From NCBI GenBank assembly GCA_025544715.1, contig GCA_025544715.1_4109.5: DNA of 23,806 bases. One strand, 5' to 3'. Shown piece by piece: positions 8,942 through 22,081 of this stretch (position 1 is its first letter; the number at the start of each line of letters is the position of its first letter). The stretch is from Escherichia coli. Its GTDB lineage: Bacteria; Pseudomonadota; Gammaproteobacteria; Enterobacterales; Enterobacteriaceae. The position numbers and the translations under genes are program-made. The notes beneath the pieces are model-generated. The model made no database searches. It saw nothing but the letters and a program-made list of their open reading frames with translations, and was not told the origin of the DNA.

Positions 8942-8971
8942 ATGATTGATATTAATTTTAAGGGAGTCCCT

Positions 8972-9169
8972 ATGCATATTTTAACTCAAGCAGAACACCA
9001 CGAAAGACTTATCAATAACATGGCTATGATAATGTATAAGTCACATGAACGTGGTATGTCCTATAAGCGTGAATTAGTTATGGCACTATTCATTGGGACT
9101 AACTTTCAGGAAAGGTATGTCAACGATTGGATTTGGTATTTAATTGAAGATATAACGAGTAAACTATGA
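8972..9169 (+). CDS. family-1 paralog 1 (LGTNYQ-motif small protein)
   Basis: AAGGGAG RBS then ATG 8972 (ORF-track start 8942 is upstream of the RBS); C-terminal LFIGTNFQERYV...IEDITSKL. Confidence 0.65.
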   Translation: MHILTQAEHHERLINNMAMIMYKSHERGMSYKRELVMALFIGTNFQERYVNDWIWYLIEDITSKL

Positions 9170-9366
9170 AAATGCGTAAATTAACCGAAAAAGAATATCA
9201 AGCACTGTTACGTAAAAACTACACAAAGATTTATAATACAGACTCACACGTAGAAAGAATGGAGTTATACCTTTTGATTACATTGGGAACTAACTATCAG
9301 GATGCATGGGTAACGAAATATGTGGATACATTGAAAAATAAAACATTGTCCACGAGGAAACAATGA
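9166..9366 (+). CDS. family-1 paralog 2
   Basis: ATGA overlap; ITLGTNYQDAWV motif. Confidence 0.7.
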   Translation: MKMRKLTEKEYQALLRKNYTKIYNTDSHVERMELYLLITLGTNYQDAWVTKYVDTLKNKTLSTRKQ

Positions 9367-9572
9367 AAACTATAACACGAACCCAATCATTCGGACTTAT
9401 CTTGAAATACATGGACTTAATGGTGGATATCAGCAAAGACCTGCCTAAAACTGAAATTGAAGTTGCAAGAGCAGAGATCCGCATGTTGGCTGTACTGAAC
9501 ACAAACCATCAGGAAGATTATGTTGAAGAATGGATTCATTTTTTAATAGAAGATATTAAGAGTAAATTATGA
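9363..9572 (+). CDS. family-1 paralog 3
   Basis: ATGA overlap; AVLNTNHQEDYV...IEDIKSKL. Confidence 0.7.
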   Translation: MKTITRTQSFGLILKYMDLMVDISKDLPKTEIEVARAEIRMLAVLNTNHQEDYVEEWIHFLIEDIKSKL

Positions 9573-9784
9573 TTATTATAGAAAACTCATATCAATATAC
9601 TGAACGCATTGCTGCCAGGCAACTTGAAATCCTCATAATATACGAAGAGACTTCTGATTTAAACTTAGCTGAGGTATTGGAAAATGAAATACTTTTGGGT
9701 GCATTCTTGGGAACTGACTATCAGGAGTATTATGAGCAAAAGTATTTGTCATCTCTTGAGAAATACATCAGGAGCAAATTATGA
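9569..9784 (+). CDS. family-1 paralog 4
   Basis: ATGA overlap; AFLGTDYQEYY motif. Confidence 0.7.
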   Translation: MIIIENSYQYTERIAARQLEILIIYEETSDLNLAEVLENEILLGAFLGTDYQEYYEQKYLSSLEKYIRSKL

Positions 9785-9993
9785 TTTTTTTAACACCTGA
9801 AGAATATAAGAAACGTTTTAATTCTGTCCAGACTGAAATATTACTTATATACCTTTCAAATGCAGACCTTAACTTATCAAGGGCAATGGAGAAGGATTTA
9901 CTTATGGGTGCATTTTTGGATACAGACTTTCAGGAGTATTATGTAGGGAAATACTTAATTGAACTTCAGAACTACATTAAGAGTAAACTATGA
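9781..9993 (+). CDS. family-1 paralog 5
   Basis: ATGA overlap; AFLDTDFQEYYV motif. Confidence 0.7.
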   Translation: MIFLTPEEYKKRFNSVQTEILLIYLSNADLNLSRAMEKDLLMGAFLDTDFQEYYVGKYLIELQNYIKSKL

Positions 9994-10208
9994 AACATTT
10001 AAGTAATATAGAGAAGAATAAAATTATCATAGCTGCAATAAACAAATATTTTACACTTCAACAAAAAGAATGTTTATCTATAAGGGAACACAGAATAAAC
10101 ACCACCGATGTACGCATGATGGCTGTACTGGGGACTAACTTCCAAGAAGGCTATGTTCATGAGCACATCGTTGCACTCACTAATTACATAATGGACAAAT
10201 GTAAATGA
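9990..10208 (+). CDS. family-1 paralog 6
   Basis: ATGA overlap; AVLGTNFQEGYV motif. Confidence 0.7.
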   Translation: MKHLSNIEKNKIIIAAINKYFTLQQKECLSIREHRINTTDVRMMAVLGTNFQEGYVHEHIVALTNYIMDKCK

Positions 10209-10417
10209 AACGTCTTAGCAGCAGAGAATATTCTGCTATATTACATAAAGCTTTACCTGAGTTACAAAACATCGAGACGACCATCCCTGAGCCAACGCGA
10301 GGTGTACTGTTTACGGATTGTATGTTATTACACTTCATGGGAACTAATCACCAAGAATCTATAGTATCATCTCTCATCAACGCACTTAAACTTGAAATAA
10401 GAGACAAATGTAAATGA
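10205..10417 (+). CDS. family-1 paralog 7
   Basis: ATGA overlap; HFMGTNHQESIV motif. Confidence 0.7.
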   Translation: MKRLSSREYSAILHKALPELQNIETTIPEPTRGVLFTDCMLLHFMGTNHQESIVSSLINALKLEIRDKCK

Positions 10418-10671
10418 AACACTTGACAGACGATGAATATTCACTTAGAATTCGAAAGCTCACCCCAGAAGCAAGAGTAATCTACGATGACGATGCACTT
10501 TCATGGGTAGAGATGAAAGTTAAAGTTAATGAGCTATGGTTGCTGTACTTTCTGGGGACTAACTATCAAGAGAAATATTGCACCGATTACATTGAACAAC
10601 TAATGGAACTTATACAGGAAAAACTAAATGATCGAATTGTGGAAAAATATGAAAACTTTATCAAGCACTGA
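10414..10671 (+). CDS. family-1 paralog 8 with C-terminal extension
   Basis: ATGA overlap; YFLGTNYQEKY motif; usual junction stop is missing, giving a 13-aa extension overlapping the next gene. Confidence 0.65.
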   Translation: MKHLTDDEYSLRIRKLTPEARVIYDDDALSWVEMKVKVNELWLLYFLGTNYQEKYCTDYIEQLMELIQEKLNDRIVEKYENFIKH

Positions 10672-10900
10672 GTATCAAACTGCCCTATTCTCTTTACTAA
10701 ACACCCTTCGCAAGAACAATGAACTTTATCCTTCCCCTGAGAATGATGTAGTTAATGGAGACGTGCTCCTTCTTAAATTCATTGGAACTGATAAACAAGA
10801 TACCTTCACTGATCGTTATATCAATGCACTAAGAAACCTTGTAGCATATAAAACCCGCAAGGCCCAAAGAGAATGGAAGAGACAATGCGACAAAGACTAA
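10628..10900 (+). CDS. family-1 paralog 9
   Basis: KFIGTDKQDTF motif; family-like N-terminus begins at in-frame ATG 10649, so the true start may be 10649. Confidence 0.6.
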   Translation: MIELWKNMKTLSSTEYQTALFSLLNTLRKNNELYPSPENDVVNGDVLLLKFIGTDKQDTFTDRYINALRNLVAYKTRKAQREWKRQCDKD

Positions 10901-11136
10901 ATCACAAAATGTATTGTAAACTATTACAATCACTGGCACAGAAACACTATGATACAGTATCTGAAATATTACCCTATGATATCATGCGTTTAATTCATAG
11001 TGAGGCCGAGATGCTTGTACTGATGAGAGGGACTGATAAAACAGCAATAGCCAGATCGATTGAGCAATATATTGATGCACACTGCCAACACATGAGAACC
11101 GAAATCTGGAGGAAAGAGAATGAAACTCCTGAGTAA
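10873..11136 (+). CDS. family-1 paralog 10 (divergent)
   Basis: LMRGTDKTAIARSIEQYI keeps G-T-D and spacing but loses the Q; overlapping frame. Confidence 0.55.
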   Translation: MEETMRQRLNHKMYCKLLQSLAQKHYDTVSEILPYDIMRLIHSEAEMLVLMRGTDKTAIARSIEQYIDAHCQHMRTEIWRKENETPE

Positions 11137-11353
11137 TTATGAATATTATAGTCTGTTGCGAACTATACAAGCAAAAGTTTCTAGTATTTCTTTAAACAAA
11201 TCTATTGCACAAGAGGACAAATGTGTTATAATGGCTGAAATGAAGTTAGCTCTCTTCGTTGGAACAAACTATCAAAACATCTACACTGACGTATTGTTAG
11301 CCAGCCTACGCAACAAGGTGTTATCCAAAAATGAGAAAATTACAAGGTGTTGA
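11120..11353 (+). CDS. family-1 paralog 11
   Basis: MKLLSNYEYYSLLR N-terminus; LFVGTNYQNIY motif. Confidence 0.65.
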   Translation: MKLLSNYEYYSLLRTIQAKVSSISLNKSIAQEDKCVIMAEMKLALFVGTNYQNIYTDVLLASLRNKVLSKNEKITRC

Positions 11354-11549
11354 ATATATTAAGCTTCTGAAAACCTGTGCAAGCAGAAGGAGAAAGATTC
11401 AAAATGATAAAAGCATCTCTATTGACCTTAAGCACGCACTAGTAACTGAACTCTATGTAGGTGCACTCTTAGGCACAGACTATCAACAAATGTATGTAGA
11501 CATGTGGATTGAGGCTCTACTGAAAGAGGTTAAAAGTAAATGCAAATGA
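11331..11549 (+). CDS. family-1 paralog 12
   Basis: ALLGTDYQQMYV...KSKCK. Confidence 0.65.
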   Translation: MRKLQGVEYIKLLKTCASRRRKIQNDKSISIDLKHALVTELYVGALLGTDYQQMYVDMWIEALLKEVKSKCK

Positions 11550-11785
11550 TTAATTTAACTTATATTGAATATCAAAAACGTTTAAATGCATCCAGAGATA
11601 TAAGGATTCAAATATTCAATAACAAAAGATTGAAGCCTGATATCAGGAAAATCAAAATCATAGAAGCAGAGTTGTGCAACTTTTTAGGGACGAACTATCA
11701 GGCAGGTAAGGTAAAAAACTATCTTAGAGAACTCATGAATAGTATTGAAAATAAATGCAAGGATAATGAATATGAAAATGATTAA
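11540..11785 (+). CDS. family-1 paralog 13
   Basis: NFLGTNYQAGKV motif; in-frame ATG 11546 would give the usual ATGA overlap. Confidence 0.65.
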   Translation: MQMINLTYIEYQKRLNASRDIRIQIFNNKRLKPDIRKIKIIEAELCNFLGTNYQAGKVKNYLRELMNSIENKCKDNEYEND

Positions 11786-12011
11786 ATTATCTCAAGCAAA
11801 ATATAAAGAACGCCTGGTGAAAATTGCACCTGGACTTAATGAAATCCATCACGGAGAAGTCATTAAACATGGAAATAAGATGATTATGAAACTTGAGTTA
11901 AAGGTGGGTGCATTCATAGGAACAAACTATCAGGAGTATTATGTAGATGAATACATAATCGCACTTAAGAGATACATTGGAAGAAAACTATATCTACAAA
12001 CTAAAGAATAG
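11772..12011 (+). CDS. family-1 paralog 14
   Basis: ORF-track start 11745 is TTG; ATG 11772 follows AAGGA; AFIGTNYQEYYV motif. Confidence 0.6.
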   Translation: MKMIKLSQAKYKERLVKIAPGLNEIHHGEVIKHGNKMIMKLELKVGAFIGTNYQEYYVDEYIIALKRYIGRKLYLQTKE

Positions 12012-12040
12012 TATTGAAAATAAATGCGAGGATAATGAAC

Positions 12041-12304
12041 ATGAAAATGATTAATTTAAGTAAAGATGAATATACCGAGCGTATGGCAAAAATCTCAACT
12101 AAACGTAACACACTCTATCACAACCCAGAAATTCAACACAGTAAGAAAATGATTATGATGCGTGAGTTAAAGATGGGAGTATTCTTAGGAACAAACTATC
12201 AAGATACAGAAGTAAATCGCTTAATTTCGGAGTTACTAATGGAAATCAGAGGTAAGCTGTACTTTCATCAAATTACCCAACCACTGAGGTGTACTAAGAA
12301 ATGA
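12041..12304 (+). CDS. family-1 paralog 15
   Basis: ORF-track start 12014 is TTG; ATG 12041 follows GAGGA; VFLGTNYQDTEV motif. Confidence 0.6.
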   Translation: MKMINLSKDEYTERMAKISTKRNTLYHNPEIQHSKKMIMMRELKMGVFLGTNYQDTEVNRLISELLMEIRGKLYFHQITQPLRCTKK

Positions 12305-12516
12305 TCAACATCACATTGCAAGAAAGATTCATCCGAATCAACTATGCAATTACCAAATTAGATGCTACTATAGGATTCCAAAGTCTACCATATAAAACCA
12401 GATTGTTATTAGAGTGTGAAGCTAAGTTGGGTGTACTGTTAGGGACGCAACACCAACAACGATATGTGGAAATCTGGATTGACCTTTTAACCCAAAATAT
12501 ATATGAGAGAATGTAA
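12301..12516 (+). CDS. family-1 paralog 16
   Basis: ATGA overlap; VLLGTQHQQRYV motif. Confidence 0.7.
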   Translation: MINITLQERFIRINYAITKLDATIGFQSLPYKTRLLLECEAKLGVLLGTQHQQRYVEIWIDLLTQNIYERM

Positions 12517-12753
12517 ATGCAAAATGAAATGATATACTTAACGAATGAAGAATTTCAAGAGAAGATGTTAAAAACCAAAAACATTAATCTTAAGTTCGTT
12601 CCAAATCAATCAATATCTGAAGTATCTGCAAATGTATTGTTTCAGAAGCTACCATACTTTCTTGGAACTGATAAACAAGAATTTATGGTTCAAAATATGA
12701 TTGAACATCTTATGATGAGTATTAAGGAAAAAGTAAATGCAAAAACAAAATGA
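12517..12753 (+). CDS. family-1 paralog 17
   Basis: starts right after upstream stop; YFLGTDKQEFMV motif; N-terminus MQNEMIYLT shared with next gene. Confidence 0.65.
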   Translation: MQNEMIYLTNEEFQEKMLKTKNINLKFVPNQSISEVSANVLFQKLPYFLGTDKQEFMVQNMIEHLMMSIKEKVNAKTK

Positions 12754-13003
12754 AATGATATACTTAACACCTGCTGAGTTAACAGAAAGACTAGTTAAAT
12801 CCAGAAGATATACAAATCAACTTCCTCACAACCCAAACCAGACCCCAGCCGAAAGGAGTGCAGAAGTTTTATTCCAATCACTACCATACCTTCTTGGAAC
12901 TAATAGACAAGAGTATCATATCGAACGTATAATTAGATATCTTAAAATTACTATTCAGGAAAAGATACATGAACAAGAATATAAAAATCTTTACGGTCAA
13001 TGA
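12737..13003 (+). CDS. family-1 paralog 18
   Basis: YLLGTNRQEYHI motif; N-terminus MQKQNEMIYLT. Confidence 0.65.
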   Translation: MQKQNEMIYLTPAELTERLVKSRRYTNQLPHNPNQTPAERSAEVLFQSLPYLLGTNRQEYHIERIIRYLKITIQEKIHEQEYKNLYGQ

Positions 13004-13226
13004 ATATCATGATATTATAATGAAGACGAATATTGTAAATTCTAAAATTTCAAATACCAAGTTCATCCTTGAACATACATTAGAAGAACGACAATTGATA
13101 TTAGTTGAAGCAAAACTTCTTGCACTATTAGGTTCTAACTATCAAGACGAGTACATAAGAAAACTAATATACCTTTTAACTAAACATATCAGAAAAAAGA
13201 CACATGAAACACTTGACAGACGATGA
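12969..13226 (+). CDS. family-1 paralog 19
   Basis: ALLGSNYQDEYI motif. Confidence 0.65.
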   Translation: MNKNIKIFTVNEYHDIIMKTNIVNSKISNTKFILEHTLEERQLILVEAKLLALLGSNYQDEYIRKLIYLLTKHIRKKTHETLDRR

Positions 13227-13434
13227 ACATGGGCTTATAGTAATGGATGTAATCAACATCGAATACAAAAAGTTGATACGCTACCGTTGTTATGAAGATA
13301 AGCAACTAGTTCTAGCAGAACAGAAGTTGTTTCGACTCTTAAACACAAACTACCAAGCACAATACGAAGAATCGTATATGTACCTTTTGGCGAGGAAAGC
13401 AAAAAGAGATTATGAAAATTTTAAGCAAAGGTGA
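13204..13434 (+). CDS. family-1 paralog 20
   Basis: RLLNTNYQAQY motif; first 24 nt identical to paralog 8 (ATGAAACACTTGACAGACGATGAA). Confidence 0.65.
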   Translation: MKHLTDDEHGLIVMDVINIEYKKLIRYRCYEDKQLVLAEQKLFRLLNTNYQAQYEESYMYLLARKAKRDYENFKQR

Positions 13435-13639
13435 TTCAGTAATATTACTTATAGAGAGTTCAAGTCAATTCTTAAACATATCACTGTCTGATATAGATGA
13501 AGATGATAAAGAAGTACTGAGAGCAGATTTAAGAGTACTGTTACATCTCGGAACAAACCTACAAGAAAGATATGTAGAGTACTACATTGATGAACTTAAA
13601 GAATCAGTACTGAGAAAATGCAAATGCAAATGCGAATGA
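13412..13639 (+). CDS. family-1 paralog 21
   Basis: HLGTNLQERYV motif; C-terminus KCKCKCE encoded by AAATGC hexamer repeat. Confidence 0.65.
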   Translation: MKILSKGDSVILLIESSSQFLNISLSDIDEDDKEVLRADLRVLLHLGTNLQERYVEYYIDELKESVLRKCKCKCE

Positions 13640-13851
13640 TTACCGACGAAGAATACCTAACAATCATAAATGGACTGTTTTTGAAGCTCTTCGTCATTAA
13701 CACATCAGATATACCAGATATGGATAAAATTATTAAGAGAAATGAAATCTATGTTCTAGCTACCCTGGGAACTAACTATCAAGAATACGATATTAATGAT
13801 TATATTAAGACACTTAAACGAGCGATTGAACTAAAATGCCAAAACCACTAG
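13618..13851 (+). CDS. family-1 paralog 22
   Basis: ATLGTNYQEYDI motif; start may be ATG 13636 (ATGA overlap). Confidence 0.6.
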   Translation: MQMQMRMITDEEYLTIINGLFLKLFVINTSDIPDMDKIIKRNEIYVLATLGTNYQEYDINDYIKTLKRAIELKCQNH

Positions 13852-14051
13852 GAACAGCAGAATACATTGAACTCATGGGATTACACTTCTCATCCTTTCA
13901 GAAACTTATGCGAGAATCAAAGAATGATTTAGAATATACCATCAGAGGTTCAGATTTAAGAATGCTTCTCACCCTAGACACAGATTCCCAAGAGCGATTT
14001 GTCAATGAGCACATTAGAGCACTTTTAATGGAAATTCAAAGTAAACTATGA
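13836..14051 (+). CDS. family-1 paralog 23
   Basis: TLDTDSQERFV motif. Confidence 0.65.
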   Translation: MPKPLGTAEYIELMGLHFSSFQKLMRESKNDLEYTIRGSDLRMLLTLDTDSQERFVNEHIRALLMEIQSKL

Positions 14052-14263
14052 AGGTAATATCAAACCAAGAGTACTTGGCACTATTCAGAAAGAATAATCA
14101 TAAATTTATGGCACTTGATACAAGAACTGATATAGGGGAACTTGAAAAAAATCTTTTGCGTTCAGAGATGATAGTACTGACACTCTTAGGAACACAGCAT
14201 CAAGAAAGAACTGTTAATTCACACATAGAAATACTTAAGAAGCTTATACAGGAAAAGTTATGA
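14048..14263 (+). CDS. family-1 paralog 24
   Basis: ATGA overlap; TLLGTQHQERTV motif. Confidence 0.7.
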   Translation: MKVISNQEYLALFRKNNHKFMALDTRTDIGELEKNLLRSEMIVLTLLGTQHQERTVNSHIEILKKLIQEKL

Positions 14264-14481
14264 GAATCATAACACAACAAGATATGTTTAAGTTCACAAG
14301 GGATTATGCATCTGAATTTGATGCTATATTATCAAAAAGTTACAATGACCCTTATACAGAAGATGTACACTACAATGAATTATGGATGTATATACTTTTA
14401 GGTACAAATAAGCAAGAGCAAGCAGTACAGAAGTATTTGACAGCCTTAAGTACTGCTACTGCTAATGGAGTATGTGTTTAA
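14260..14481 (+). CDS. family-1 paralog 25
   Basis: ATGA overlap; ILLGTNKQEQAV motif. Confidence 0.7.
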   Translation: MRIITQQDMFKFTRDYASEFDAILSKSYNDPYTEDVHYNELWMYILLGTNKQEQAVQKYLTALSTATANGVCV

Positions 14482-14725
14482 AATGCTAGTACTGACAGAA
14501 TTAGAAATGGCAATGAGGTTTAATAGATTCAGACATTTACTTAAACCTATACAGAGGATTAAGTGCCCATTTGTAGTGAAACAGGTATTAATTTATGAGC
14601 ATAAGTTATTTGTATCATTAGGTACGAATGAACAAGAGTATTATTTGAAGTTGTACTTAATTACATTAATAGATTTAATTCACTATAAAACCAAACAAGC
14701 TAATAAAGAGAAATATGAAAACTAA
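14465..14725 (+). CDS. family-1 paralog 26
   Basis: VSLGTNEQEYYL motif; alternative start ATG 14483. Confidence 0.6.
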   Translation: MEYVFKMLVLTELEMAMRFNRFRHLLKPIQRIKCPFVVKQVLIYEHKLFVSLGTNEQEYYLKLYLITLIDLIHYKTKQANKEKYEN

Positions 14726-15059
14726 TATACAACTCAAGGTATATAAATCATTTGAACATACATATATCAAAAGTAGTCTATGTAGAGATGTAATGGATTA
14801 CAAGGGTAAGCCATTCACAATTACCTATGATTCTTATGTTAGTGATTTATATATATCATTTGTTAATTACGAAAATAAAATATACAAGCACGTTGATATT
14901 AAAGATTTAAGTACTTTATCACCAGAGGAATACTTTCAGGAATCATTAGTATGGGATTTAGAGTTTCCTATGCCATTAGTACATAAGATGATAGTACTAA
15001 TGAAAGAATCTAAACAGGAGCCTAATAGTGCTTATGAAGAACACATTATTGAGTATTAA
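14715..15059 (+). CDS. family-2 paralog (acidic-FQ motif protein, 114 aa)
   Basis: SPEEYFQESLVWDLEF motif; overlaps end of last family-1 gene. Confidence 0.65.
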   Translation: MKTNIQLKVYKSFEHTYIKSSLCRDVMDYKGKPFTITYDSYVSDLYISFVNYENKIYKHVDIKDLSTLSPEEYFQESLVWDLEFPMPLVHKMIVLMKESKQEPNSAYEEHIIEY

Positions 15060-15082
15060 GAGTACTGATAGTACAAATGTTC

Positions 15083-15111
15083 TTGACTGTACTTTTCATT
15101 ACTGATATAGT
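15083..15111 (+). promoter_or_regulatory. candidate sigma70-type promoter
   Basis: TTGACT (15083-15088), 17-nt spacer, TATAGT (15106-15111). Confidence 0.5.
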
Positions 15112-15140
15112 GCACCAACGTTAATCATAGGGTACAGATT

Positions 15141-15386
15141 ATGTTAAAATTTTTAAATTTCCTTATCGTCTTGTGTATTGTTCTTGGAATTGCACCGTTT
15201 GTATTAGCGTATCTGGATTCAGATGAAATGCAGAAGATGAATTGTACAAAGACAGGACAGAGTAGAGAAGAGACGGTTATGATACCCGTAACGGTTATTG
15301 TTAATAACATACCAATTACGAACATGATTCCTACCCTAACGACAACGTACCAGTACTCTTGTACAGATGGAGAGAGATGGAGATGA
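15141..15386 (+). CDS. small membrane or secreted protein (81 aa)
   Basis: hydrophobic N-terminus MLKFLNFLIVLCIVLGIAPFVLAYL; stop overlaps next start (ATGA). Confidence 0.5.
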   Translation: MLKFLNFLIVLCIVLGIAPFVLAYLDSDEMQKMNCTKTGQSREETVMIPVTVIVNNIPITNMIPTLTTTYQYSCTDGERWR

Positions 15387-15703
15387 AATTTAATATAGCA
15401 AAAACATCGAATGTATGTATATTTGGTTATGCAGATGAGTTAGGTGATCTTGACATTCTTTTGTACAAAAAGGATGGTGTTATGCATTTCAAGTACCAGG
15501 ATGAAGAGGCAGACAATTATCCTTTACCTAATTTAGTACAAATGCAGGAAGATGAATTATTCCAGTACAGCTTAGTATATGACATTGATATTTGCACGAT
15601 GCCAGTACTAATTAATATTCAAAAAGTGATGCTCGATGTGTTTGATAGGCTAATACAAGGCACACAAGGAAGAACCATATATGTCAATGTACAAGACAAT
15701 TAA
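15383..15703 (+). CDS. family-2 paralog (106 aa)
   Basis: ORF-track start 15359 is TTG; ATG 15383 overlaps upstream stop; QEDELFQYSLVYDIDI motif. Confidence 0.6.
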   Translation: MKFNIAKTSNVCIFGYADELGDLDILLYKKDGVMHFKYQDEEADNYPLPNLVQMQEDELFQYSLVYDIDICTMPVLINIQKVMLDVFDRLIQGTQGRTIYVNVQDN

Positions 15704-15745
15704 TCAAGAACATAAAACCTAAAATACAGGGAGTACAGAGAACGT

Positions 15746-16012
15746 ATGCAAAACACAAGGTATTATAAAAAAGTAAACCAATATTTGTACGCATCGAAGT
15801 ACAGGGATTTTTGTTTAAAGGGTGGTGATGAAGATTTTTCTTTGCGATTATCAGAATTTAATCTGTTATTTTATCTTGGTACATCGGAACAAGAAGAAAT
15901 GGCACAGAAATTTATCAAGCACCTTGAACAAAAAATTCATATGCAAATTTTGATGCTTAAGGTACATAATGAGATAAACAAATATGAATCCAACAATAGT
16001 ACAGGATCTTAA
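15746..16012 (+). CDS. family-1 paralog, dispersed copy (88 aa)
   Basis: LFYLGTSEQEEMAQKFIKHLEQKIH matches family-1 C-terminal block although located inside the family-2 zone. Confidence 0.6.
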   Translation: MQNTRYYKKVNQYLYASKYRDFCLKGGDEDFSLRLSEFNLLFYLGTSEQEEMAQKFIKHLEQKIHMQILMLKVHNEINKYESNNSTGS

Positions 16013-16373
16013 ACAAGTAATATTCCTTTTGAATACAAGAAGTTCCTTGTATACAGAGTTAAAAGATATTAATGCATTTTATCAGAATTTTGTAATTCAA
16101 GAGTTCAGTGATTTAATTACAGATGCATTATTTGAATTATCGGAAAAATACAAAGGAAAAGAGTTCAGTGTTAAGAATGTATTACGTCCTTTATCAAAGC
16201 GTATAATAAAATTAGATTGTTTCGAATTTGACAATAAAGATTTATTCGGTCATAATCTAAGTACAGCTTTATATTTTATTCCTGATTCAGACAAAAATCA
16301 TCCTATTCATTACGGATGGATTTTGTCTTACATAGAACAAGGAAAGGAGTATCCTATTAAATGGAACGATTAG
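15984..16373 (+). CDS. hypothetical protein (129 aa), possible degenerate family-2 member
   Basis: long ORF on coding strand; weak NAFYQNFVIQEF resemblance to the FQ motif. Confidence 0.5.
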   Translation: MNPTIVQDLKQVIFLLNTRSSLYTELKDINAFYQNFVIQEFSDLITDALFELSEKYKGKEFSVKNVLRPLSKRIIKLDCFEFDNKDLFGHNLSTALYFIPDSDKNHPIHYGWILSYIEQGKEYPIKWND

Positions 16374-16521
16374 GGCGATTAGATTATTACACAATTAATA
16401 CAAATTATTTGTTGAGTAATATAAAATCCGATTACAAAATATGGATAAAGAACAGAGATAGTATGTGTTATGAATTTTATTTAGATTATGCCATCAAACG
16501 ATTTTTAAGAGAAGAACATTA

Positions 16522-16722
16522 ATGCACACACCGCACAAAGAGCACACAAAGCACAAAAATACAAAAACGATAAATGTTTTAAATGATTCTTTATTGGTGA
16601 GTATAAATTTATATTATAAAATTCATTTAAATGGTGGTATTGAAAATTTTAGTTATTATTTGAGTGCAATATCGCAAGAGCATTTAATATACCAAGATCA
16701 TTTATTGCACCCGAATCCATAA
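16522..16722 (+). CDS. doubtful small ORF (66 aa)
   Basis: no convincing RBS; begins in CA-rich low-complexity DNA; kept only because it is on the coding strand of a 350-bp gap. Confidence 0.25.
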   Translation: MHTPHKEHTKHKNTKTINVLNDSLLVSINLYYKIHLNGGIENFSYYLSAISQEHLIYQDHLLHPNP

Positions 16723-16730
16723 GGCGAATT

Positions 16731-17276
16731 ATGAATGAGATAGAATTATTAGCACACAAGATTAGTACAATAATGCTTATCCTCAATAACAACCATCCTA
16801 TATCGCAGATAGATGGAATCCTGAGTCAGAGGACAGGTGGTAGTTTATATTTGACATTAACAGAGGTTATCGCAAGGAATTACATTGATATTGAAATCGA
16901 GAACAGTGATGCATCAGGAAAGGTTGATGTAGGTGCATTAATCAGTTCAAATCCAGTATCAGCATCACCATTGACACGAAATGTAAGTACAGGATTCGAA
17001 GGGTATTTGTGGTACAATACCAATGATGATTATTTTATATATCAGCATTCAAATACAAATTATGATGAAGACAAATTTAAGTTCATAGACCCTTATGATG
17101 AAGCTGAAGTATTTCAAAAATCATTAATCACAAAACCGCATGAGATGATGTATCTAATGTTATTCAGTACAATGCATTTGAATCCATTAATTAAAGGTTT
17201 AAAATTTTATATTCAATTGAATTTAGTCCATGTAGTTTATGATTTATTAATGCAAGGATATAGTTATGAAGTATAA
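16731..17276 (+). CDS. family-2 paralog, long form (181 aa)
   Basis: DEAEVFQKSLI motif; C-terminus ...VYDLLMQGYSYEV parallels C-terminus of 17887-18462. Confidence 0.65.
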   Translation: MNEIELLAHKISTIMLILNNNHPISQIDGILSQRTGGSLYLTLTEVIARNYIDIEIENSDASGKVDVGALISSNPVSASPLTRNVSTGFEGYLWYNTNDDYFIYQHSNTNYDEDKFKFIDPYDEAEVFQKSLITKPHEMMYLMLFSTMHLNPLIKGLKFYIQLNLVHVVYDLLMQGYSYEV

Positions 17277-17577
17277 AATGCTTTATACATTAACATTAAT
17301 ATATGTAGAATTAGAATCCGATTCAGATGCATGGAATTTAGTTAAAGAGGTCGATACAAATCAATGGTACATGGCAAATTTAGACGCACAGGTTGTTACG
17401 GATTATTTTATAGATTTTAATACATTATCTGAAGAAGAATTTTTCCAAATGCAATTGGTGGTTGACATGTACGGGCATGACATGGTAACATTACGAAATA
17501 TACAGAAAGCCGTTAATGAAATCCAAAGCAAGAAAGATTATGAGGTAGGAGCGTATTATGACATCGACGTACAATGA
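17266..17577 (+). CDS. family-2 paralog (103 aa)
   Basis: LSEEEFFQMQLVVD motif; close paralog of next gene. Confidence 0.7.
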   Translation: MKYKMLYTLTLIYVELESDSDAWNLVKEVDTNQWYMANLDAQVVTDYFIDFNTLSEEEFFQMQLVVDMYGHDMVTLRNIQKAVNEIQSKKDYEVGAYYDIDVQ

Positions 17578-17588
17578 GTACAATAGTT

Positions 17589-17906
17589 ATGAAGTATAAA
17601 ATGCTTAATACAGTATCAGGGATATATGTAGAATTAGAATCCGATTATTCAGATGGATGGAATTTTATTAAACGCCACGATATAAATACATGGTACATGG
17701 CACATTTGGATAATGACGTAATAATAGATAATTTTGTCGATTTTAATACATTATCAGAAGAAGAATTTTTCCAAATGCAATTTGTGCTTGATACAAATGG
17801 ATTTGATTTGCTATTATTAAGGAATATTCAGAAAGCGGTTAATGAATTCATAATCCAAAATAATTCAGGTAAAATGGGGATGTTCCATGATCTGGAAGTA
17901 CAATGA
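17589..17906 (+). CDS. family-2 paralog (105 aa)
   Basis: start placed at ATG 17589, homologous to the start of 17266; LSEEEFFQMQFVLD motif. Confidence 0.65.
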   Translation: MKYKMLNTVSGIYVELESDYSDGWNFIKRHDINTWYMAHLDNDVIIDNFVDFNTLSEEEFFQMQFVLDTNGFDLLLLRNIQKAVNEFIIQNNSGKMGMFHDLEVQ

Positions 17907-18462
17907 AAGCAACGATTACAATGAAATTCAGTACACCTACGCTAATGCAATCCTTATGGGACAAAAATTAGCTTGTATTGTTGCAGCCTTATATAATGCA
18001 CAGAAAGATTACAAGCGTCATATCCACAAATGTATTGGTATTATTCCATCTAAGTACAATACATATATTGCGTGCACGAGTCATTTTGATAAACGATTCA
18101 ATACACCTGATACCCCAAATGCCAGTAGTGTTATTGGTCTTTTGGATTTCGCACCTGGTGCTGTTATTGGAAAGAATGATTTAGAGTACGCATGGTATAA
18201 TAAAAATTCCCCATTAGTAATGGTAAAATATGATACAGAAACGAACAAAACAATAGAGTACAATACATATAAATCAGAGGAAGAATTTTTCCAAGGTTCA
18301 TTGCTTGTGCCAGTGCGTTTGTTGTTTTATAATGTCCTTATTAGTACAGTACACAATAGTCCATTACACAAGAATCACAAAATTAATTTCAATTTTTGTG
18401 CTTATGCGATTGATGGTGTGTATGAGTGTTTAATGGAGGTATTGAGTTATGAAGCTGAATAA
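17887..18462 (+). CDS. family-2 paralog, long form (191 aa)
   Basis: SEEEFFQGSLLV motif; C-terminus ...VYECLMEVLSYEAE. Confidence 0.65.
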   Translation: MIWKYNESNDYNEIQYTYANAILMGQKLACIVAALYNAQKDYKRHIHKCIGIIPSKYNTYIACTSHFDKRFNTPDTPNASSVIGLLDFAPGAVIGKNDLEYAWYNKNSPLVMVKYDTETNKTIEYNTYKSEEEFFQGSLLVPVRLLFYNVLISTVHNSPLHKNHKINFNFCAYAIDGVYECLMEVLSYEAE

Positions 18463-18790
18463 TACATTTGATATTAATAAGTTAAGAGAATGGTTTTATA
18501 GTATTGAAATTGAAGCCATCCCGTATCATAGATATGAACAATATAATTTAACCAGTATTGATATCCGTGAGTTGTACGCGTATTATCAAAGTGCATTAGA
18601 GATGCATAAGTTATTTTTGAGTACAGATTTTGTTCTAAATTACAATTTTGAGGAATTTAATAATTATAATTTAGTACAGAAATATGTAGTAGCAAAGTAC
18701 ATGTACCTTCAAGGAATTACAAGTACCGTGGAATTCAATACAGTCCTTGCTTTAGTTGAGGTAATTTTATGCAGTACATGTATGATTTAG
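18449..18790 (+). CDS. hypothetical protein (113 aa), possible degenerate family-2 member
   Basis: ATG overlapping upstream gene end; ELYAYYQSALEMH weakly motif-like. Confidence 0.55.
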   Translation: MKLNNTFDINKLREWFYSIEIEAIPYHRYEQYNLTSIDIRELYAYYQSALEMHKLFLSTDFVLNYNFEEFNNYNLVQKYVVAKYMYLQGITSTVEFNTVLALVEVILCSTCMI

Positions 18791-19275
18791 AGTTCAGTTT
18801 AGATGCAGCATTTAAATATGTTCACAAGATAGAAACAATATACAGTACATTATGTGCAATACAATCAGTATCATCTGAGTTTGATGTTGGTGAAAAATAT
18901 CAGGTATGGAATAATACATTTCTAAACAAAGAACGTTGCTCTACGGGGTTTAATATTTTAACATTTAATCCCAGCAATTGTTACCCAGAGAAGCATGAAC
19001 GTTATCCGAATGACGACATGTGGTTTGATTACACAAAAGATGGTGATATGTCATCCCTTGTAGTTCCTGATGATTTTAATGCCGAAGATTTAACGAAAGA
19101 GTGGTGGTTTCAACAGAATTTAGTACACGATGATATTGATTTATTTTTTTATGTAGTATTTAAAATGCTTTACCACAACAATATATTAAAAGATAGTGTG
19201 TTTTTTTCATGTCTATATATTGATGATTTGTACAATGAAATCCAAATCAACATGCCCATAACGCCTGTATCGTAA
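18769..19275 (+). CDS. family-2 paralog (168 aa)
   Basis: TKEWWFQQNLVHDDIDL motif. Confidence 0.65.
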   Translation: MQYMYDLEFSLDAAFKYVHKIETIYSTLCAIQSVSSEFDVGEKYQVWNNTFLNKERCSTGFNILTFNPSNCYPEKHERYPNDDMWFDYTKDGDMSSLVVPDDFNAEDLTKEWWFQQNLVHDDIDLFFYVVFKMLYHNNILKDSVFFSCLYIDDLYNEIQINMPITPVS

Positions 19276-19290
19276 GATATGGGCTTTTTT
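19255..19290 (+). terminator. possible terminator (CCCATA / TATGGG stem plus T-run)
   Basis: 6-bp stem with large 17-nt loop followed by CTTTTTTCGTTTT; large loop lowers confidence. Confidence 0.35.
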
Positions 19291-19300
19291 CGTTTTGGTA

Positions 19301-19329
19301 TTGACAAAGAAGTGCAAAGCTGTTATCAT
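19301..19329 (+). promoter_or_regulatory. sigma70-type promoter
   Basis: TTGACA (19301-19306), 17-nt spacer, TATCAT (19324-19329). Confidence 0.6.
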
Positions 19330-19357
19330 GTGTAATCATTTTAAAGGAGAACATATA

Positions 19358-19870
19358 GTGAGTTTCATAATCCCAAGTACATACGAAGATGCATCAAGTG
19401 CAGTTCATAAGATTCATTATATTTTTAATTTAATTATTAGATCTGCAAAAATTAAAATGTATGCACCTCTTGTGACAAATAATCGAAATGAAGAAATTTT
19501 TATTAGCACAGACAAAATTATTTTTCCATATTTCAATGAAGATAGATTGTGGTTCATACATTTAGCTGCATTACAAAAATATAAGATGTCAATTCGTAAT
19601 AATTTGGTTATACCGTTATATCATCCCGATATTGGAGAGGATGAATATTTTCAGTACAGCACAGTACACCGCCATGAAGATATCTTTGCTGCTATGCTTA
19701 TTGCTAAATTGAACACCGTTGATTTGGAGCAGTACAAATACAATAATAAATCATGTAAGATCATAATCCCTGCATTCATAGCTCTTTATGATTATGTGGT
19801 GCATAACAAAAAAGATGATACATATGCTTTCAATGAAGAGTATTTGGATTTTTTTAAGGAGAACATATGA
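19358..19870 (+). CDS. family-2 paralog (170 aa), GTG start
   Basis: ORF-track start 19295 is TTG inside the promoter; GTG 19358 lies 8 nt after AAGGAG; GEDEYFQYSTVH motif. Confidence 0.55.
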   Translation: MSFIIPSTYEDASSAVHKIHYIFNLIIRSAKIKMYAPLVTNNRNEEIFISTDKIIFPYFNEDRLWFIHLAALQKYKMSIRNNLVIPLYHPDIGEDEYFQYSTVHRHEDIFAAMLIAKLNTVDLEQYKYNNKSCKIIIPAFIALYDYVVHNKKDDTYAFNEEYLDFFKENI

Positions 19871-20394
19871 GCAGTGAAGTAGAGAAAGCAATGACATTCA
19901 ATGAAATTGGTACATTTAAAGATAAGATCATTGATTGTCTTGAATACATGATTTGTAGTAATATCGAGAGTATTGAGATATTTAACAAGAGAAATCGCTC
20001 TTATCATATGATGTACATTGCAAACAATAATGGTATCCTTCCATTTATTTCGGATAGTACAATATGGTACGCATGTGATACGAAAAAATACACAGTAGGT
20101 TCACATGTATTTGAGACACATTATGATCTAATTATTCCTGAGCATTGTATGCAAGAAGAAGAATATTTTCAAATGCAATGTGTACATGCACCATTAGTGT
20201 TGTTTAGTTTATATATTGTACCTTATATCACCAAATGTGTTCATGAGAATAAAGCTCCGTGGAATCATGAATTTGTATCATTGAAGTTATTGTATAATGT
20301 ATTAGCAGAATATTATGATTACAGGCACAATGGTACAATCAGCGATGTATGGGATTTCGAAAATTTAAGGGTGAAAACATACACAGGGGCATAA
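19867..20394 (+). CDS. family-2 paralog (175 aa)
   Basis: ATGA overlap; QEEEYFQMQCVH motif. Confidence 0.7.
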   Translation: MSSEVEKAMTFNEIGTFKDKIIDCLEYMICSNIESIEIFNKRNRSYHMMYIANNNGILPFISDSTIWYACDTKKYTVGSHVFETHYDLIIPEHCMQEEEYFQMQCVHAPLVLFSLYIVPYITKCVHENKAPWNHEFVSLKLLYNVLAEYYDYRHNGTISDVWDFENLRVKTYTGA

Positions 20395-20395
20395 C

Positions 20396-21010
20396 ATGAG
20401 CAGAATGAAAATGAATGATTTGATGCAGTACAGTAAAATTGCTATTCCAGTGCTTAATAAAGTGCTGGATGCATTCATTGCCAAATACCCTGAGAATTCA
20501 GTGTTATGTATTCCATTTAGTGTTCCAGATAAAGATGATATATTCCAAGTGAATGTCAGTACACGTGGTATTACATTACAGCAGAAATACATGGATACGG
20601 AATATTATGGAATAAAGTTGGATTCAGTACAGGGTTCAAAATCAGCCTATGATTTTTTTGTTCCTAATAATATAGAGTCATGGGAAACAAACATTTCAAA
20701 GAAAGATGAAAATGATGTTCCTATTAGTGGTGTGTTCAACAATAAAGTTTTTTATTATTACGAAACCGACAAATTCCCTGAAGAGTTATATTATAATTCA
20801 GAAATGAATGAAGATGTAGATGCATTCATGTTTCAATTATCGTTAGTACATGATATCATTGATGTTCAAGAGTTAAGAGCAGAAATCAATTTAGCTAAAG
20901 AATTATCGGACATGCTGCCACCGTTTAGTATGCTTTTTTGTGAAGGAGGTTATTTTTCAAAAGAAGTGTTTGAACATTTCGTAGATGTTGTAAAAGGGTT
21001 GGATATATAG
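20396..21010 (+). CDS. family-2 paralog (204 aa)
   Basis: EDVDAFMFQLSLVHDIIDV motif. Confidence 0.65.
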   Translation: MSRMKMNDLMQYSKIAIPVLNKVLDAFIAKYPENSVLCIPFSVPDKDDIFQVNVSTRGITLQQKYMDTEYYGIKLDSVQGSKSAYDFFVPNNIESWETNISKKDENDVPISGVFNNKVFYYYETDKFPEELYYNSEMNEDVDAFMFQLSLVHDIIDVQELRAEINLAKELSDMLPPFSMLFCEGGYFSKEVFEHFVDVVKGLDI

Positions 21011-21011
21011 T

Positions 21012-21206
21012 ATGCTTATAGTTGATATTAAACAAAAATACCGTAAGTTTGATTGGTTCACCGACAGTTTCCAGCTTGAATTATTACATTTGAATATCTG
21101 TGAAACATTATGTGCAGAAACACAAGATGAATTAGATGATAGAGTGATGAACATAGTAATGCTTTCTTGCTTTAAACATTTTGGTTATTTTTTCGGACAG
21201 AATTGA
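21012..21206 (+). CDS. hypothetical protein (64 aa), possible degenerate family-2 member
   Basis: FTDSFQLELLHLNI weakly motif-like; tightly packed between neighbours. Confidence 0.5.
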   Translation: MLIVDIKQKYRKFDWFTDSFQLELLHLNICETLCAETQDELDDRVMNIVMLSCFKHFGYFFGQN

Positions 21207-21214
21207 GGTATAAA

Positions 21215-21730
21215 ATGCATCAACACAAGCATCATTCATATGATTTTGCAATTAACATCATGAAGTTCATTCGAGCGTTGGAGGATGGTAAGCTTAGTCA
21301 TAAGTACAGGGAAGAGGGTAACAATTGGTTCAGAAATGATTCCGAGTTCAGTTGTCATAAAATCGTGTATAGTAATCATTACAGGGCCAATTACCTACAA
21401 GATGTAGTGATGTGTTTTGAATATGTGTTGCAGTTCAGGGGTTCAATCCAAGATGAGTTGATGGAGAACATGTACATCCGATACCTTCCAATGCTCAAAG
21501 ATGAAAATGTAGCATTCAATTCGATATACCAACGAGTTCGTGAAATAGAGTGCAGGGATATATTAGATACAGAAGAATCGTATTTCCAGCAATCCCTGAT
21601 TTATGCACCTGATTTATTACAGGTACATAATTTGTTTAATACATTACGTCAGAACATCAGTACAGACATATTTTTGTCATTATCGGATTATGATACATTT
21701 GTCAAAGATTTAGAGGAAATAGGTTTATGA
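21215..21730 (+). CDS. family-2 paralog (171 aa)
   Basis: ORF-track start 21203 is TTG; ATG 21215 follows GAGG; TEESYFQQSLIYAPDLL motif. Confidence 0.65.
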   Translation: MHQHKHHSYDFAINIMKFIRALEDGKLSHKYREEGNNWFRNDSEFSCHKIVYSNHYRANYLQDVVMCFEYVLQFRGSIQDELMENMYIRYLPMLKDENVAFNSIYQRVREIECRDILDTEESYFQQSLIYAPDLLQVHNLFNTLRQNISTDIFLSLSDYDTFVKDLEEIGL

Positions 21731-22071
21731 GTAGGTTTTCAGTTTATATAGTAAACGTCAGTAAAGATGGTAGTTTAATTGAATTTGATGTAGTTGATAA
21801 CAATGATAATTCATATGGTATTAAGGTACAAGACAATGATGTACAGTTCAGTACAAGGACAAATTTTGAGAATCCAGTCCAAGTTCCGAATTTCATAGAA
21901 GATGAAGCTGCACGATTCCAATACGAAACGGCATATGACAATGTACATATGCATATTATTATGCAAACGAGTTTAGTTCAATTAGTTCCTTTGTTCAGAC
22001 AAAATATATATGTACATGAAGTGTCGATTAATGGCATTCAAAGTTCCGTTTTGTTCGGTACAAATATGTAA
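21727..22071 (+). CDS. family-2 paralog (114 aa)
   Basis: ATGA overlap; EDEAARFQYETAYDNV motif. Confidence 0.65.
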   Translation: MSRFSVYIVNVSKDGSLIEFDVVDNNDNSYGIKVQDNDVQFSTRTNFENPVQVPNFIEDEAARFQYETAYDNVHMHIIMQTSLVQLVPLFRQNIYVHEVSINGIQSSVLFGTNM

Positions 22072-22081
22072 GGAAAGTACA

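What the first reader, a model, noticed from the sequence alone, without database searches (positions are those of the whole stretch)
11738..12054. Fresh duplication footprint inside array 1 (about 49 bp, coding in one copy, intergenic in the other)
GAATAGTATTGAAAATAAATGCAAGGATAATGAATATGAAAATGATTAA at 11738-11786 recurs at 12006-12054 with two substitutions. In the first copy it encodes the C-terminus of paralog 13 (..IENKCKDNEYEND) and the start of paralog 14; in the second it is a non-coding remnant before paralog 15. Paralogs 14 and 15 therefore share the N-terminal context MKINARIMNMKMI. This is what a recent tandem duplication by unequal crossing-over would leave.
Basis: seen in the sequence. 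Interest (0 to 1): 0.6.

Follow-up and report, generated by a model that had tools for sequence, protein, structure and literature searches.

The report
Old repeat flanking a gene cassette
Two near-identical 49-base stretches flank one small gene in a giant E. coli phage's tandem gene array; they come from an old duplication shared with many related phages and kept alike by recombination, so this is ordinary gene-array evolution, not a fresh event.

Summary
The repeat is real. They match at 47/49 bases, 269 nt apart. No shuffle gave a second match, and the next most similar of 351 junction pairs matches at 34/49.

It is not a fresh tandem duplication. The rest of the 269-nt unit is only 60% identical (132/220; p=1.7e-7). 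The same layout (g13, J1, g14, J2, g15, 269-nt spacing) occurs in 14 other Asteriusvirus genomes read here. Ten relatives lack g14.

Paralog 14's closest relative is not paralog 15. It is a gene (gX, 83% nt) in another slot in phages WPEC3 and fEgEco12.

J2 is a displaced copy of the 3' end of g13 plus the ribosome-binding site and start codon of the next gene.

The within-genome identity comes from recombination. The window's J1 and J2 carry the same mosaic of the two alleles seen in G17, plus two bases (positions 22 and 27) found in no orthologous J. Other phages show partial and near-complete conversion of J2. UB, which lacks g14, has a hybrid J.

I found no promoter, terminator, RNA structure or Rfam match in J. 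The protein family (phrog_4148, a three-helix fold) has no known function.

Interest is low to moderate.

The parts
11737..11785 (+). J1: 49-nt repeat, copy 1. It holds the last 16 codons and stop of paralog 13, the Shine-Dalgarno-like AAGGA (11759-11763), and the ATG of paralog 14 (11772).
   Evidence: the orthologue annotation in G17 puts the start at repeat position 36
12006..12054 (+). J2: 49-nt repeat, copy 2 (47/49 identical). It holds GAA-TAG, the end of paralog 14, then a 29-nt non-coding remnant (12012-12040) with GAGGA (12028-12032), then the ATG of paralog 15 (12041).
11711..11736 (+). Weaker leftward extension of the repeat (g13 3' coding region). AAAACTAT and AACT.A. match 11980-12005 in register. 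The left boundary is fuzzy.
   Evidence: 17 of the 30 nt left of J match in register, against 9-12 for shifted registers
11980..12005 (+). Tail of paralog 14 (..KLYLQTKE). It aligns in register with the g13 3' end but is read in a different frame. The homology with gX ends at AAACTA.
11540..11785 (+). Paralog 13 (81 aa). In this phage it is 5 codons longer than in G17, because repeat position 32 is G (TAA->GAA).
11772..12011 (+). Paralog 14 (79 aa), the cassette gene between the repeats. The block 11772-12026 differs from G17 at a single base, while the flanks differ by about 6%.
12041..12304 (+). Paralog 15 (87 aa). It is an allelic mosaic: 12086-12113 matches the 121Q/TH47 allele.
8942..14725 (+). 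Tandem array of 26 small paralogues (phrog_4148). A 27th, outlying copy lies at 15746-16012.

Best explanation
The window comes from an Asteriusvirus-type jumbo coliphage. The two 49-nt copies (J1, J2) are direct repeats flanking paralog 14, a 79-codon member of a roughly 27-copy tandem family. J is the 3' end of paralog 13 fused to the ribosome-binding site and start codon of the next gene. J2 arose when a gX-like gene body was joined out of frame, near an AAACTA microhomology, to a second copy of the g13 3' end (inferred from the anatomy). That event is old: the same joints are shared by many sequenced relatives. Since then the repeats have served as homology for recombination. This has produced three outcomes. 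(a) Loss or gain of exactly one 269-nt unit, so that relatives have g13-J-g15. (b) Patchy non-allelic gene conversion between J1 and J2, which in this genome has made them 96% identical. (c) Exchange of the g14 cassette between co-infecting phages, with crossovers inside J. J2 is retained because it supplies the translation start region of paralog 15. There is no sign of any other function. Shown here: the repeat, its distribution, the unit-sized polymorphism, the hybrid and mosaic alleles, and the uneven divergence. Inferred: the order of events and the conversion mechanism.
For: Identity is uneven across the unit: 47/49 in J against 132/220 in the rest (Fisher p=1.7e-7). The layout g13-J1-g14-J2-g15 with 269-nt spacing is present in slurp01, UE-S1, G17, PBECO4, ELP-22, SD-2_S15, SD-15_S21, phAPEC6, CRJP21 and five E. 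coli-labelled assemblies. It is absent (g13-J-g15, or no g13) in 121Q, TH47, Turkey3, UB, Ecwhy_1, WPEC3, vB_Ec-M-J, ph0011, fEgEco12 and A4. The window's J1 and J2 differ from each other at 2 positions, but from orthologous J1 at >=4 and from orthologous J2 at >=5. Both copies carry C22 and A27, which no orthologous J has. At the six positions that separate G17's J1 (A-type) from its J2 (B-type), the two window copies show the same A/B mosaic at five. There is a graded series of within-genome J1-J2 differences: G17/slurp01 6, PBECO4/SD-2 2 (J2 is A-type on the left, B-type on the right), ELP-22 1. UB lacks g14, yet its g13 is 100% and its g15 98.8% identical to G17's. Its single J equals G17 J1 positions 1-38 plus G17 J2 positions 39-49. 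The g14 body is 97-99.5% identical across carriers, while g13 is 90-95% and g15 93-94% identical to the window. There is 1 mismatch in 11772-12026 against G17. The exact g14 protein is on record in 68 blocks of the public collection. The closest paralogue of g14 is gX of WPEC3/fEgEco12; the homology runs from ATGATTAA to GGAAG.AAACTA and then stops. An ENA contig carries g12-gY-g14'-tail-J without g13. J is more variable between genomes than the g14 body: 13 and 10 variable columns of 49, against 8 of 220.
Against: A single conversion tract covering positions 22-32 should also have homogenised position 23, which still differs (A in J1, G in J2, matching the orthologous states). So either the repair was patchy or there were several events. 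Direction (gain versus loss of g14, or which J converted which) cannot be rooted without a recombination-aware genome phylogeny. UB's hybrid J could equally come from an inter-phage crossover pairing J1 with the single J of a g14-less phage. The origin of the 15 nt between AAACTAT and AACT is ambiguous: 70% identical to the g13 tail and 59% to the g15 tail (and manual count). The window's own closest relatives are not in the collections, so its recent history is unsampled.
Confidence: 0.72

Rival explanations
1. Fresh tandem duplication by unequal crossing-over in the recent ancestry of this phage. A 269-nt unit was copied recently and the 49-mer is its still-undiverged footprint.
For: The repeats are direct, exactly one unit apart, and 96% identical. 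Paralogs 14 and 15 are each other's closest relatives within this window: 46% aa, and the longest direct repeat in the array.
Against: The other 220 nt of the unit are 60% identical. The same arrangement and joints occur in 14 other genomes. g14 and g15 have separate orthologues at 99% and 94%. g14 is nearer to gX (83% nt) than to g15.
Confidence: 0.04
2. Recent acquisition in this lineage. An ancestor with a single J (g13-J-g15) picked up the g14 cassette from a G17-like phage by crossovers inside J. Both copies would then descend from one J allele and be alike because the acquisition is recent, though not by self-duplication.
For: The block 11772-12026 has 1 mismatch to G17 while the flanks are about 6% divergent, with boundaries inside J1 (position 35/36) and J2 (position 21/22). 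Both J cores carry the same lineage-specific bases. A J with GCAAGGATAATG exists in an unrelated arrangement in an ENA contig.
Against: It needs at least three crossovers. The two J cores (positions 22-35) differ at 2 of 14 positions, while the supposedly co-acquired 255-nt block differs from G17 at 1 of 255. The difference at position 23 matches the orthologous J1/J2 states of G17. A simple allelic patch replacement of g14 in a phage that already had two J copies explains the same block with two crossovers.
Confidence: 0.15
3. Purifying selection on a functional element. The 49-mer would be a regulatory or RNA element (promoter, terminator, translational coupling or frameshift signal) needed upstream of both genes, and is conserved for that reason.
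For: It contains a Shine-Dalgarno-like AAGGA/GAGGA 8 nt before the ATG of both downstream genes. The last 14 nt are coding in both copies.
Against: No sigma-70-like promoter or intrinsic terminator lies in J. Folding is no better than shuffles: z = +0.59 and 0.00 for the 81-nt contexts, -1.4 for the 49-mers. There is no Rfam match. Between genomes J is more variable than the adjacent g14 body, and three quite different J allele types serve the same position. The g14 stop inside J2 is TTG in UE-S1, so no conserved frameshift or stop context exists.
Confidence: 0.07

Closest known systems
Staphylococcus aureus lpl tandem paralogue cluster (Tsuru & Kobayashi 2008, PMC2568036)
   Same: Both are tandem arrays of paralogues compared across many genomes of one group. 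The conserved unit spans the 3' end of one ORF, the spacer, and the 5' end of the next ORF. Homologous recombination between short conserved stretches causes unit gain, loss and shuffling among strains (for the paper; here).
   Different: In lpl the recombination site proposed is a central conserved region inside each ORF. Here the crossovers I could map lie in the junction repeat, although a conserved central GGAACAAACTATCA (LGTNYQ) also exists. The genes here are about 70-codon phage proteins, not lipoproteins. Only one junction pair (J1/J2) is highly similar.
Interlocus (non-allelic) gene conversion and concerted evolution of tandem duplicates
   Same: The paralogous segments are more alike within a genome than their orthologues are between genomes. 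They share lineage-specific bases at homologous positions. The tracts are short, bounded by diverged flanks, and differ in length between lineages.
   Different: The tract is very short (<=49-75 nt) and patchy. In phages the same pattern can also be produced by exchange between co-infecting genomes, which cannot be separated from intragenomic conversion with these data.
Gene-amplification 'genomic accordions' in large DNA viruses (poxvirus K3L; own knowledge, Elde et al. 2012)
   Same: Both involve recombination-driven change in the copy number of small accessory genes in a large viral genome.
   Different: Accordions are rapid amplifications of near-identical copies under selection. Here the copies are old and about 20-46% identical at the protein level, no amplification of identical units is seen, and no selective agent is known.

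Membership tests
Recent tandem (segmental) duplication | Direct repeats in the same orientation, one unit apart | tested here: met
   11737 and 12006, spacing 269
Recent tandem (segmental) duplication | Roughly uniform, high identity across the whole duplicated unit | tested here: not met
   47/49 against 132/220, p=1.7e-7
Recent tandem (segmental) duplication | Absent from related genomes (lineage-specific) | tested here: not met
   Same layout and spacing in 14 other genomes
Recent tandem (segmental) duplication | The two duplicated genes are each other's closest relatives overall | tested here: not met
   g14 is 83% nt identical to gX of WPEC3 and 92% to g14' of the ENA contig, but only about 73-76% to g15 over its central part
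Interlocus gene conversion / concerted evolution | Paralogous tract more similar within a genome than orthologous tracts between genomes | tested here: met
   2 differences within the window against >=4 (J1) and >=5 (J2) to orthologues
Interlocus gene conversion / concerted evolution | Same derived bases at homologous positions of both copies | tested here: met
   C22 and A27 in both copies (11758/12027 and 11763/12032), and the same A/B mosaic at 5 of 6 diagnostic sites
Interlocus gene conversion / concerted evolution | One contiguous converted tract | tested here: inconclusive
   Position 23, between the shared positions 22 and 27, still differs. This requires patchy repair or several events.
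Repeat-mediated unit deletion/insertion polymorphism | Relatives differ by exactly one repeat plus the intervening DNA | tested here: met
   Ten relatives lack g14; nine of them have g13-J-g15 with no other change at the joint and A4 also lacks g13
Repeat-mediated unit deletion/insertion polymorphism | Hybrid repeat at the joint | tested here: met
   UB's J equals G17 J1 (positions 1-38) plus G17 J2 (positions 39-49), with g13 100% identical to G17
phrog_4148 protein family | Significant full-length match to the family profile | tested here: met
   E = 1.5e-22 to 9e-27 for paralogs 12-15 and 24. No Pfam, NCBIfam or PDB match.
Mobile element with target-site duplication | Encodes a transposase, homing endonuclease or integrase, with short target-site duplications | tested here: not met
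   The only gene between the repeats is a 79-aa three-helix family member. The repeat is 49-75 nt and is itself part of the neighbouring gene.
cis-regulatory or structured RNA element | Promoter or terminator consensus, stable or conserved structure, or an Rfam match | tested here: not met
S. aureus lpl-type paralogue cluster evolution | Recombination at a central conserved region inside each ORF | tested here: inconclusive
   A conserved central motif exists (families D2-D6), but the mapped breakpoints lie at junctions

The most novel reading that the evidence does not exclude
The short conserved gene-start and gene-end sequences of this roughly 27-copy array, of which J1/J2 is the most active pair, may act as built-in recombination boundaries. 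They would let Asteriusvirus phages gain, lose and swap individual three-helix protein cassettes during co-infection. That would be a modular, accordion-like system for diversifying a lineage-specific family of host-interaction or counter-defence proteins, with detectable copy-number heterogeneity inside single phage stocks.
Probability: 0.2. Interest if true: 0.55.

Novelty: new member of a known kind. Interest (0 to 1): 0.3.

Why it matters
The locus shows, at base resolution, how a tandem array of small accessory genes in a jumbo phage changes: by unit-sized gain and loss, by short conversion tracts, and by cassette exchange at gene junctions. It also warns that a near-perfect short repeat inside a paralogue array should not be read as evidence of a young duplication. 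The array has at least seven arrangements between g12 and g15 among 25 related sequences and the window. It encodes a lineage-specific family of unknown function, with only 91 representatives at 50% clustering among 1.84 billion proteins. That makes it a reasonable place to look for host-range or anti-defence functions. The repeat itself does not point to new biology.

Tried and rejected
J as a promoter or terminator: none was found in J, and counts over the whole array equal shuffle expectation.
J as structured RNA: folding is no better than shuffles and there is no Rfam match. The window has no tRNAs.
Programmed frameshift at the g14 stop: rejected. GAA-TAG has no slippery context, and UE-S1 has TTG there.
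Mobile element with a target-site duplication: rejected, because no mobility gene is present.
Finding the window's own genome or close kin: the exact g13 and g15 proteins are not on record. The window-type J pattern is absent from IMG/VR. The two metagenome hits were chance matches with no similarity to the window.
Function of the family: no Pfam, NCBIfam or PDB sequence match. The AlphaFold model is confident (pLDDT 96.6, three helices), but Foldseek found nothing significant in PDB and only family members in BFVD.
Literature: the Asteriusvirus and jumbo-phage papers I searched (UE-S1, Sharanji, fEgEco12, CBB, the Iyer et al. overview) do not describe this array. My first literature search was badly framed and wasted.

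Full report
**1. Context**

The window is most similar to jumbo coliphages of the genus Asteriusvirus. The array region is 97% covered at 90.9% identity by vB_EcoM_G17 and Sharanji, and 36 phage records match.

Bases 8942-14725 hold 26 head-to-tail genes of about 70 codons. Their starts and stops mostly overlap. A 27th copy lies at 15746. All five copies tested match phrog_4148, a family of unknown function, with E-values of 1e-21 to 1e-27. None matches Pfam.

**2. The observation**

The 49-mer is at 11737-11785, one base to the left of the coordinates given. It recurs at 12006-12054 with two substitutions.

- No second match appeared in 100 shuffles.
- I compared the equivalent 49-nt window in front of every gene of the array. 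This pair scores 47/49, the next of 351 pairs scores 34/49, and the mean is 21.2 with sd 3.2.
- The repeat finder ranks 11710-11935 vs 11979-12204 (74% identity, spacing 269) as the largest direct repeat in the array.

The coding description is also right. Copy 1 (J1) encodes ..NSIENKCKDNEYEND* of g13 and holds the g14 start. Copy 2 (J2) holds GAA-TAG, the end of g14, then 29 non-coding bases, then the g15 start.

The orthologues in G17 and slurp01 are annotated from the ATG at repeat position 36. That ATG lies 8 nt after AAGGA/GAGGA. The shared N-terminus MKINARIMN.. from an upstream TTG is therefore probably not translated.

**3. Why it is not a fresh duplication**

Four results argue against it.

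- **Uneven identity.** In register, the remaining 220 nt of the 269-nt unit are 60% identical (132/220), against 96% for J. Fisher's exact test gives p=1.7e-7. One recent copying event would leave uniform identity.
- **Shared arrangement.** g13-J1-g14-J2-g15, with the same 269-nt spacing and the same flanking sequence at both joints, is present in 14 other genomes. These are slurp01, UE-S1, G17, PBECO4, ELP-22, SD-2_S15, SD-15_S21, phAPEC6, CRJP21 and five E. coli-labelled assemblies. The records come from Germany, Korea, Pakistan, Bangladesh and South Africa, among others.
- **Separate orthologues.** The g14 body is 97-99.5% identical to its orthologues and the g15 body about 93-94%.
- **A closer paralogue elsewhere.** The closest paralogue of g14 is not g15, which is 46% identical in protein and about 73-76% in DNA over the central 100-136 nt. 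It is a gene I call gX, which sits between g12 and gY in WPEC3 and fEgEco12 and is 83% identical over 191-227 nt. An ENA metagenome contig (L017) also carries a 92%-identical g14'.

**4. Anatomy of the joint**

The homology between g14 and gX runs from the start (ATGATTAA..) to ..GGAAG.AAACTA, the codons for ..G(R/S)KL that normally end a family member. It then stops.

From AAAACTAT onward, the g14 tail aligns in register with the 3' end of g13. Seventeen of the 30 nt left of J match, against 9-12 for shifted registers, and the match is clearest from AACT at 11729/11998. This tail is read in a different frame from g13. As a result g14 ends ..KLYLQTKE* at a TAG inside J2.

J2 together with the tail is therefore a displaced, out-of-frame copy of the last 57-75 nt of g13, including the translation start region that follows it. 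The 15 nt between AAACTAT and AACT are ambiguous: they are 70% identical to g13 and 59% to g15.

L017 carries g12-gY-g14'-tail-J, with an ordinary junction upstream and no g13. So the chimeric g14-plus-g13-tail gene also exists without J1.

One route consistent with all of this is inferred, not shown. First a g13 body was replaced by a gX-type body. Then an unequal crossover at the conserved gene start (AAATGATTAA) placed that chimera behind an intact g13-J. The reverse order, with deletion of g13-J1 producing L017, is equally possible.

**5. The repeats as recombination substrates**

(a) **Unit-sized polymorphism.** Ten relatives lack g14. Nine have g13-J-g15 with a single J, and A4 also lacks g13. 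UB is the clearest case. Its g13 is 100% and its g15 98.8% identical to G17's. Its single J equals G17 J1 for positions 1-38 and G17 J2 for positions 39-49. That is the hybrid expected from a crossover inside J, either J1xJ2 within one genome or J1 paired with the single J of a g14-less phage.

(b) **Conversion series.** G17 and slurp01 have distinct alleles at the two sites. I call J1 A-type (..GTAAGGGTAATTAACATGAAAATGATTAA) and J2 B-type (..GTGAGGTTGATGAACATGCAAATGATCAA). They differ at six positions.

| Phage | J2 state | J1-J2 differences |
|---|---|---|
| G17, slurp01 | B-type throughout | 6 |
| PBECO4, SD-2 | A-type on the left, B-type on the right | 2 |
| ELP-22 | A-type throughout, except one base | 1 |

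(c) **The window.** The six diagnostic positions are 23, 27, 29, 32, 39 and 47.

| Copy | 23 | 27 | 29 | 32 | 39 | 47 |
|---|---|---|---|---|---|---|
| G17 J1 (A-type) | A | G | A | T | A | T |
| G17 J2 (B-type) | G | T | G | G | C | C |
| Window J1 | A | A | A | G | A | T |
| Window J2 | G | A | A | G | A | T |

- The two window copies carry the same mosaic of A-type and B-type states at five of the six positions.
- Both have A at position 27 and C at position 22. No orthologous J has either base.
- The two copies differ at 2 positions, while their orthologues differ from them at >=4 (J1) and >=5 (J2).
- The G at position 32 in J1 removes the TAA that ends g13 in G17. In this phage g13 is therefore five codons longer.

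(d) **Cassette exchange.** Against G17 the window has 12 mismatches in the g13 body and 4 in J1 positions 22-35. It then has a single mismatch across 11772-12026 (255 nt), followed by 5 in J2 positions 22-47 and 16 in g15. The g14 cassette is thus a nearly identical block whose boundaries lie inside the two repeats. The exact g14 protein is on record in 68 blocks of the public collection.

(e) **Variability.** J is not unusually constrained. Among the seven genomes compared, 13 (J1) and 10 (J2) of 49 columns vary, against 8 of 220 in the g14 body. Three very different J allele types occupy the same position in different phages.

**6. What J does**

I found no evidence for an independent function.

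- No sigma-70-like promoter or intrinsic terminator falls in J. Promoter-like hits across the array (39) match the shuffle expectation (33.7 +/- 5.5).
- The RNA folds no better than shuffled sequence.
- There is no Rfam match in the window.

J does carry the Shine-Dalgarno-like element and the start codon of the downstream gene in both copies. That is enough to explain why J2 has not decayed away. A frameshift reading of the g14 stop is unlikely, because UE-S1 has TTG there and simply extends g14 by four codons (..KELYCK).

**7. The gene family**

An alignment of the 27 window copies gave a confident AlphaFold model of g14: pLDDT 96.6, three helices.

- Foldseek found nothing significant in PDB. 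In BFVD it found only members of the same family from 121Q, UB, PBECO4 and slurp01.
- Profile searches found 93 proteins in the 90%-clustered collection. All that are named come from Asteriusvirus phages or E. coli-labelled assemblies of about 350 kb.
- A profile search of 1.84 billion proteins clustered at 50% found only 91 representatives.
- There is no NCBIfam or PDB sequence match.

This is a lineage-specific expansion of unknown function.

The interval from g12 to g15 alone shows seven arrangements among the 25 related sequences and the window:

- 12-13-15
- 12-13-14-15
- 12-Y-13-15
- 12-Y-13-14-15
- 12-X-Y-13-15
- 12-Y-15
- 12-Y-14'

**8. Comparison with what is known**

The behaviour is that of a tandem paralogue cluster evolving by homologous recombination between short conserved stretches. 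[quoted passage not shown] The within-genome homogenisation is standard interlocus gene conversion, also called concerted evolution.

The locus resembles viral 'genomic accordions' only loosely (own knowledge). The copies here are old and divergent, and no amplification of identical units is seen.

The Asteriusvirus and jumbo-phage papers I could search do not describe this array. That is a limit of the library, not proof that it is undescribed.

**9. Verdict**

- **Observation:** confirmed, with a one-base offset in the first copy.
- **Interpretation:** partly supported. It is a duplication footprint and a site of unit-sized copy-number variation. It is not fresh, and g14 is not a recent copy of its neighbour.
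- **Best explanation (confidence about 0.7):** an old duplicated junction that flanks a gene cassette and is kept similar by recombination.
- **Main rival (about 0.15):** this lineage acquired the cassette recently through crossovers in a single ancestral J. Two things weigh against it. The two J cores differ at 2 of 14 positions, while the supposedly co-acquired 255-nt block differs from G17 at 1 of 255. Position 23 also keeps the orthologous J1/J2 states.
- **Novelty:** a new example of a known kind of process.
- **Interest:** 0.3.

Noticed in passing
window 14715-22633: A second, different paralogue family follows the array. About a dozen ORFs of 100-207 aa share an E-E-(E/Y)-F-F-Q-x-x-L-V-x-D-like motif near the C-terminal half. 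Examples are 14715-15059, 15359-15703, 17266-17577, 17574-17906, 17887-18462, 19867-20394 and 22010-22633.
   Followed up: no
window 11546-11549 (g12/g13 junction) vs L003 1362-1580: The window, UE-S1 and 121Q lack a whole unit (gY, 219 nt) that G17, slurp01, PBECO4 and most other relatives carry between g12 and g13. WPEC3 and fEgEco12 carry an additional unit, gX. There are seven arrangements of the g12-g15 interval among 25 related sequences and the window.
   Followed up: partly
window 12086-12113: Nine mismatches to the G17/slurp01 allele of g15 cluster within 28 nt. The window sequence there (AAAATCTCAACTAAACG) matches the 121Q/TH47 allele instead, so g15 is an allelic mosaic.
   Followed up: partly
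window 11768 (repeat position 32 of J1): G instead of T turns the TAA that ends g13 in G17/PBECO4 into GAA. In this phage g13 is therefore five codons longer (..KCKDNEYEND) and overlaps the g14 start by 14 nt.
   Followed up: yes
L002 (UE-S1) 2176-2224; protein P0003: In UE-S1 and 27 other collection members, the TAG inside J2 is TTG, so g14 runs four codons further (..KELYCK). The remnant is thus partly recruited as coding sequence.
   Followed up: partly
protein P0001 (ENA contig, 154 aa); window 12969-13434: One metagenomic relative encodes an in-frame fusion of the units corresponding to paralogs 19 and 20.
   Followed up: no
window 10414-10447 and 13204-13237: The 5' ends of units 8 and 20 (MKHLTDDEY / MKHLTDDEH) are 88% identical over 34 nt although they lie 2790 nt apart. 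This is the next most striking short repeat in the array and may be another conversion or duplication footprint.
   Followed up: no
L017 (ENA ERZ27303252 k141_956555) 2504-2763: A divergent metagenomic relative has the g14-type gene directly after gY, with an ordinary junction and no g13. It is followed by the same tail and a J carrying the window-type GCAAGGATAATG. The contig ends inside J.
   Followed up: partly
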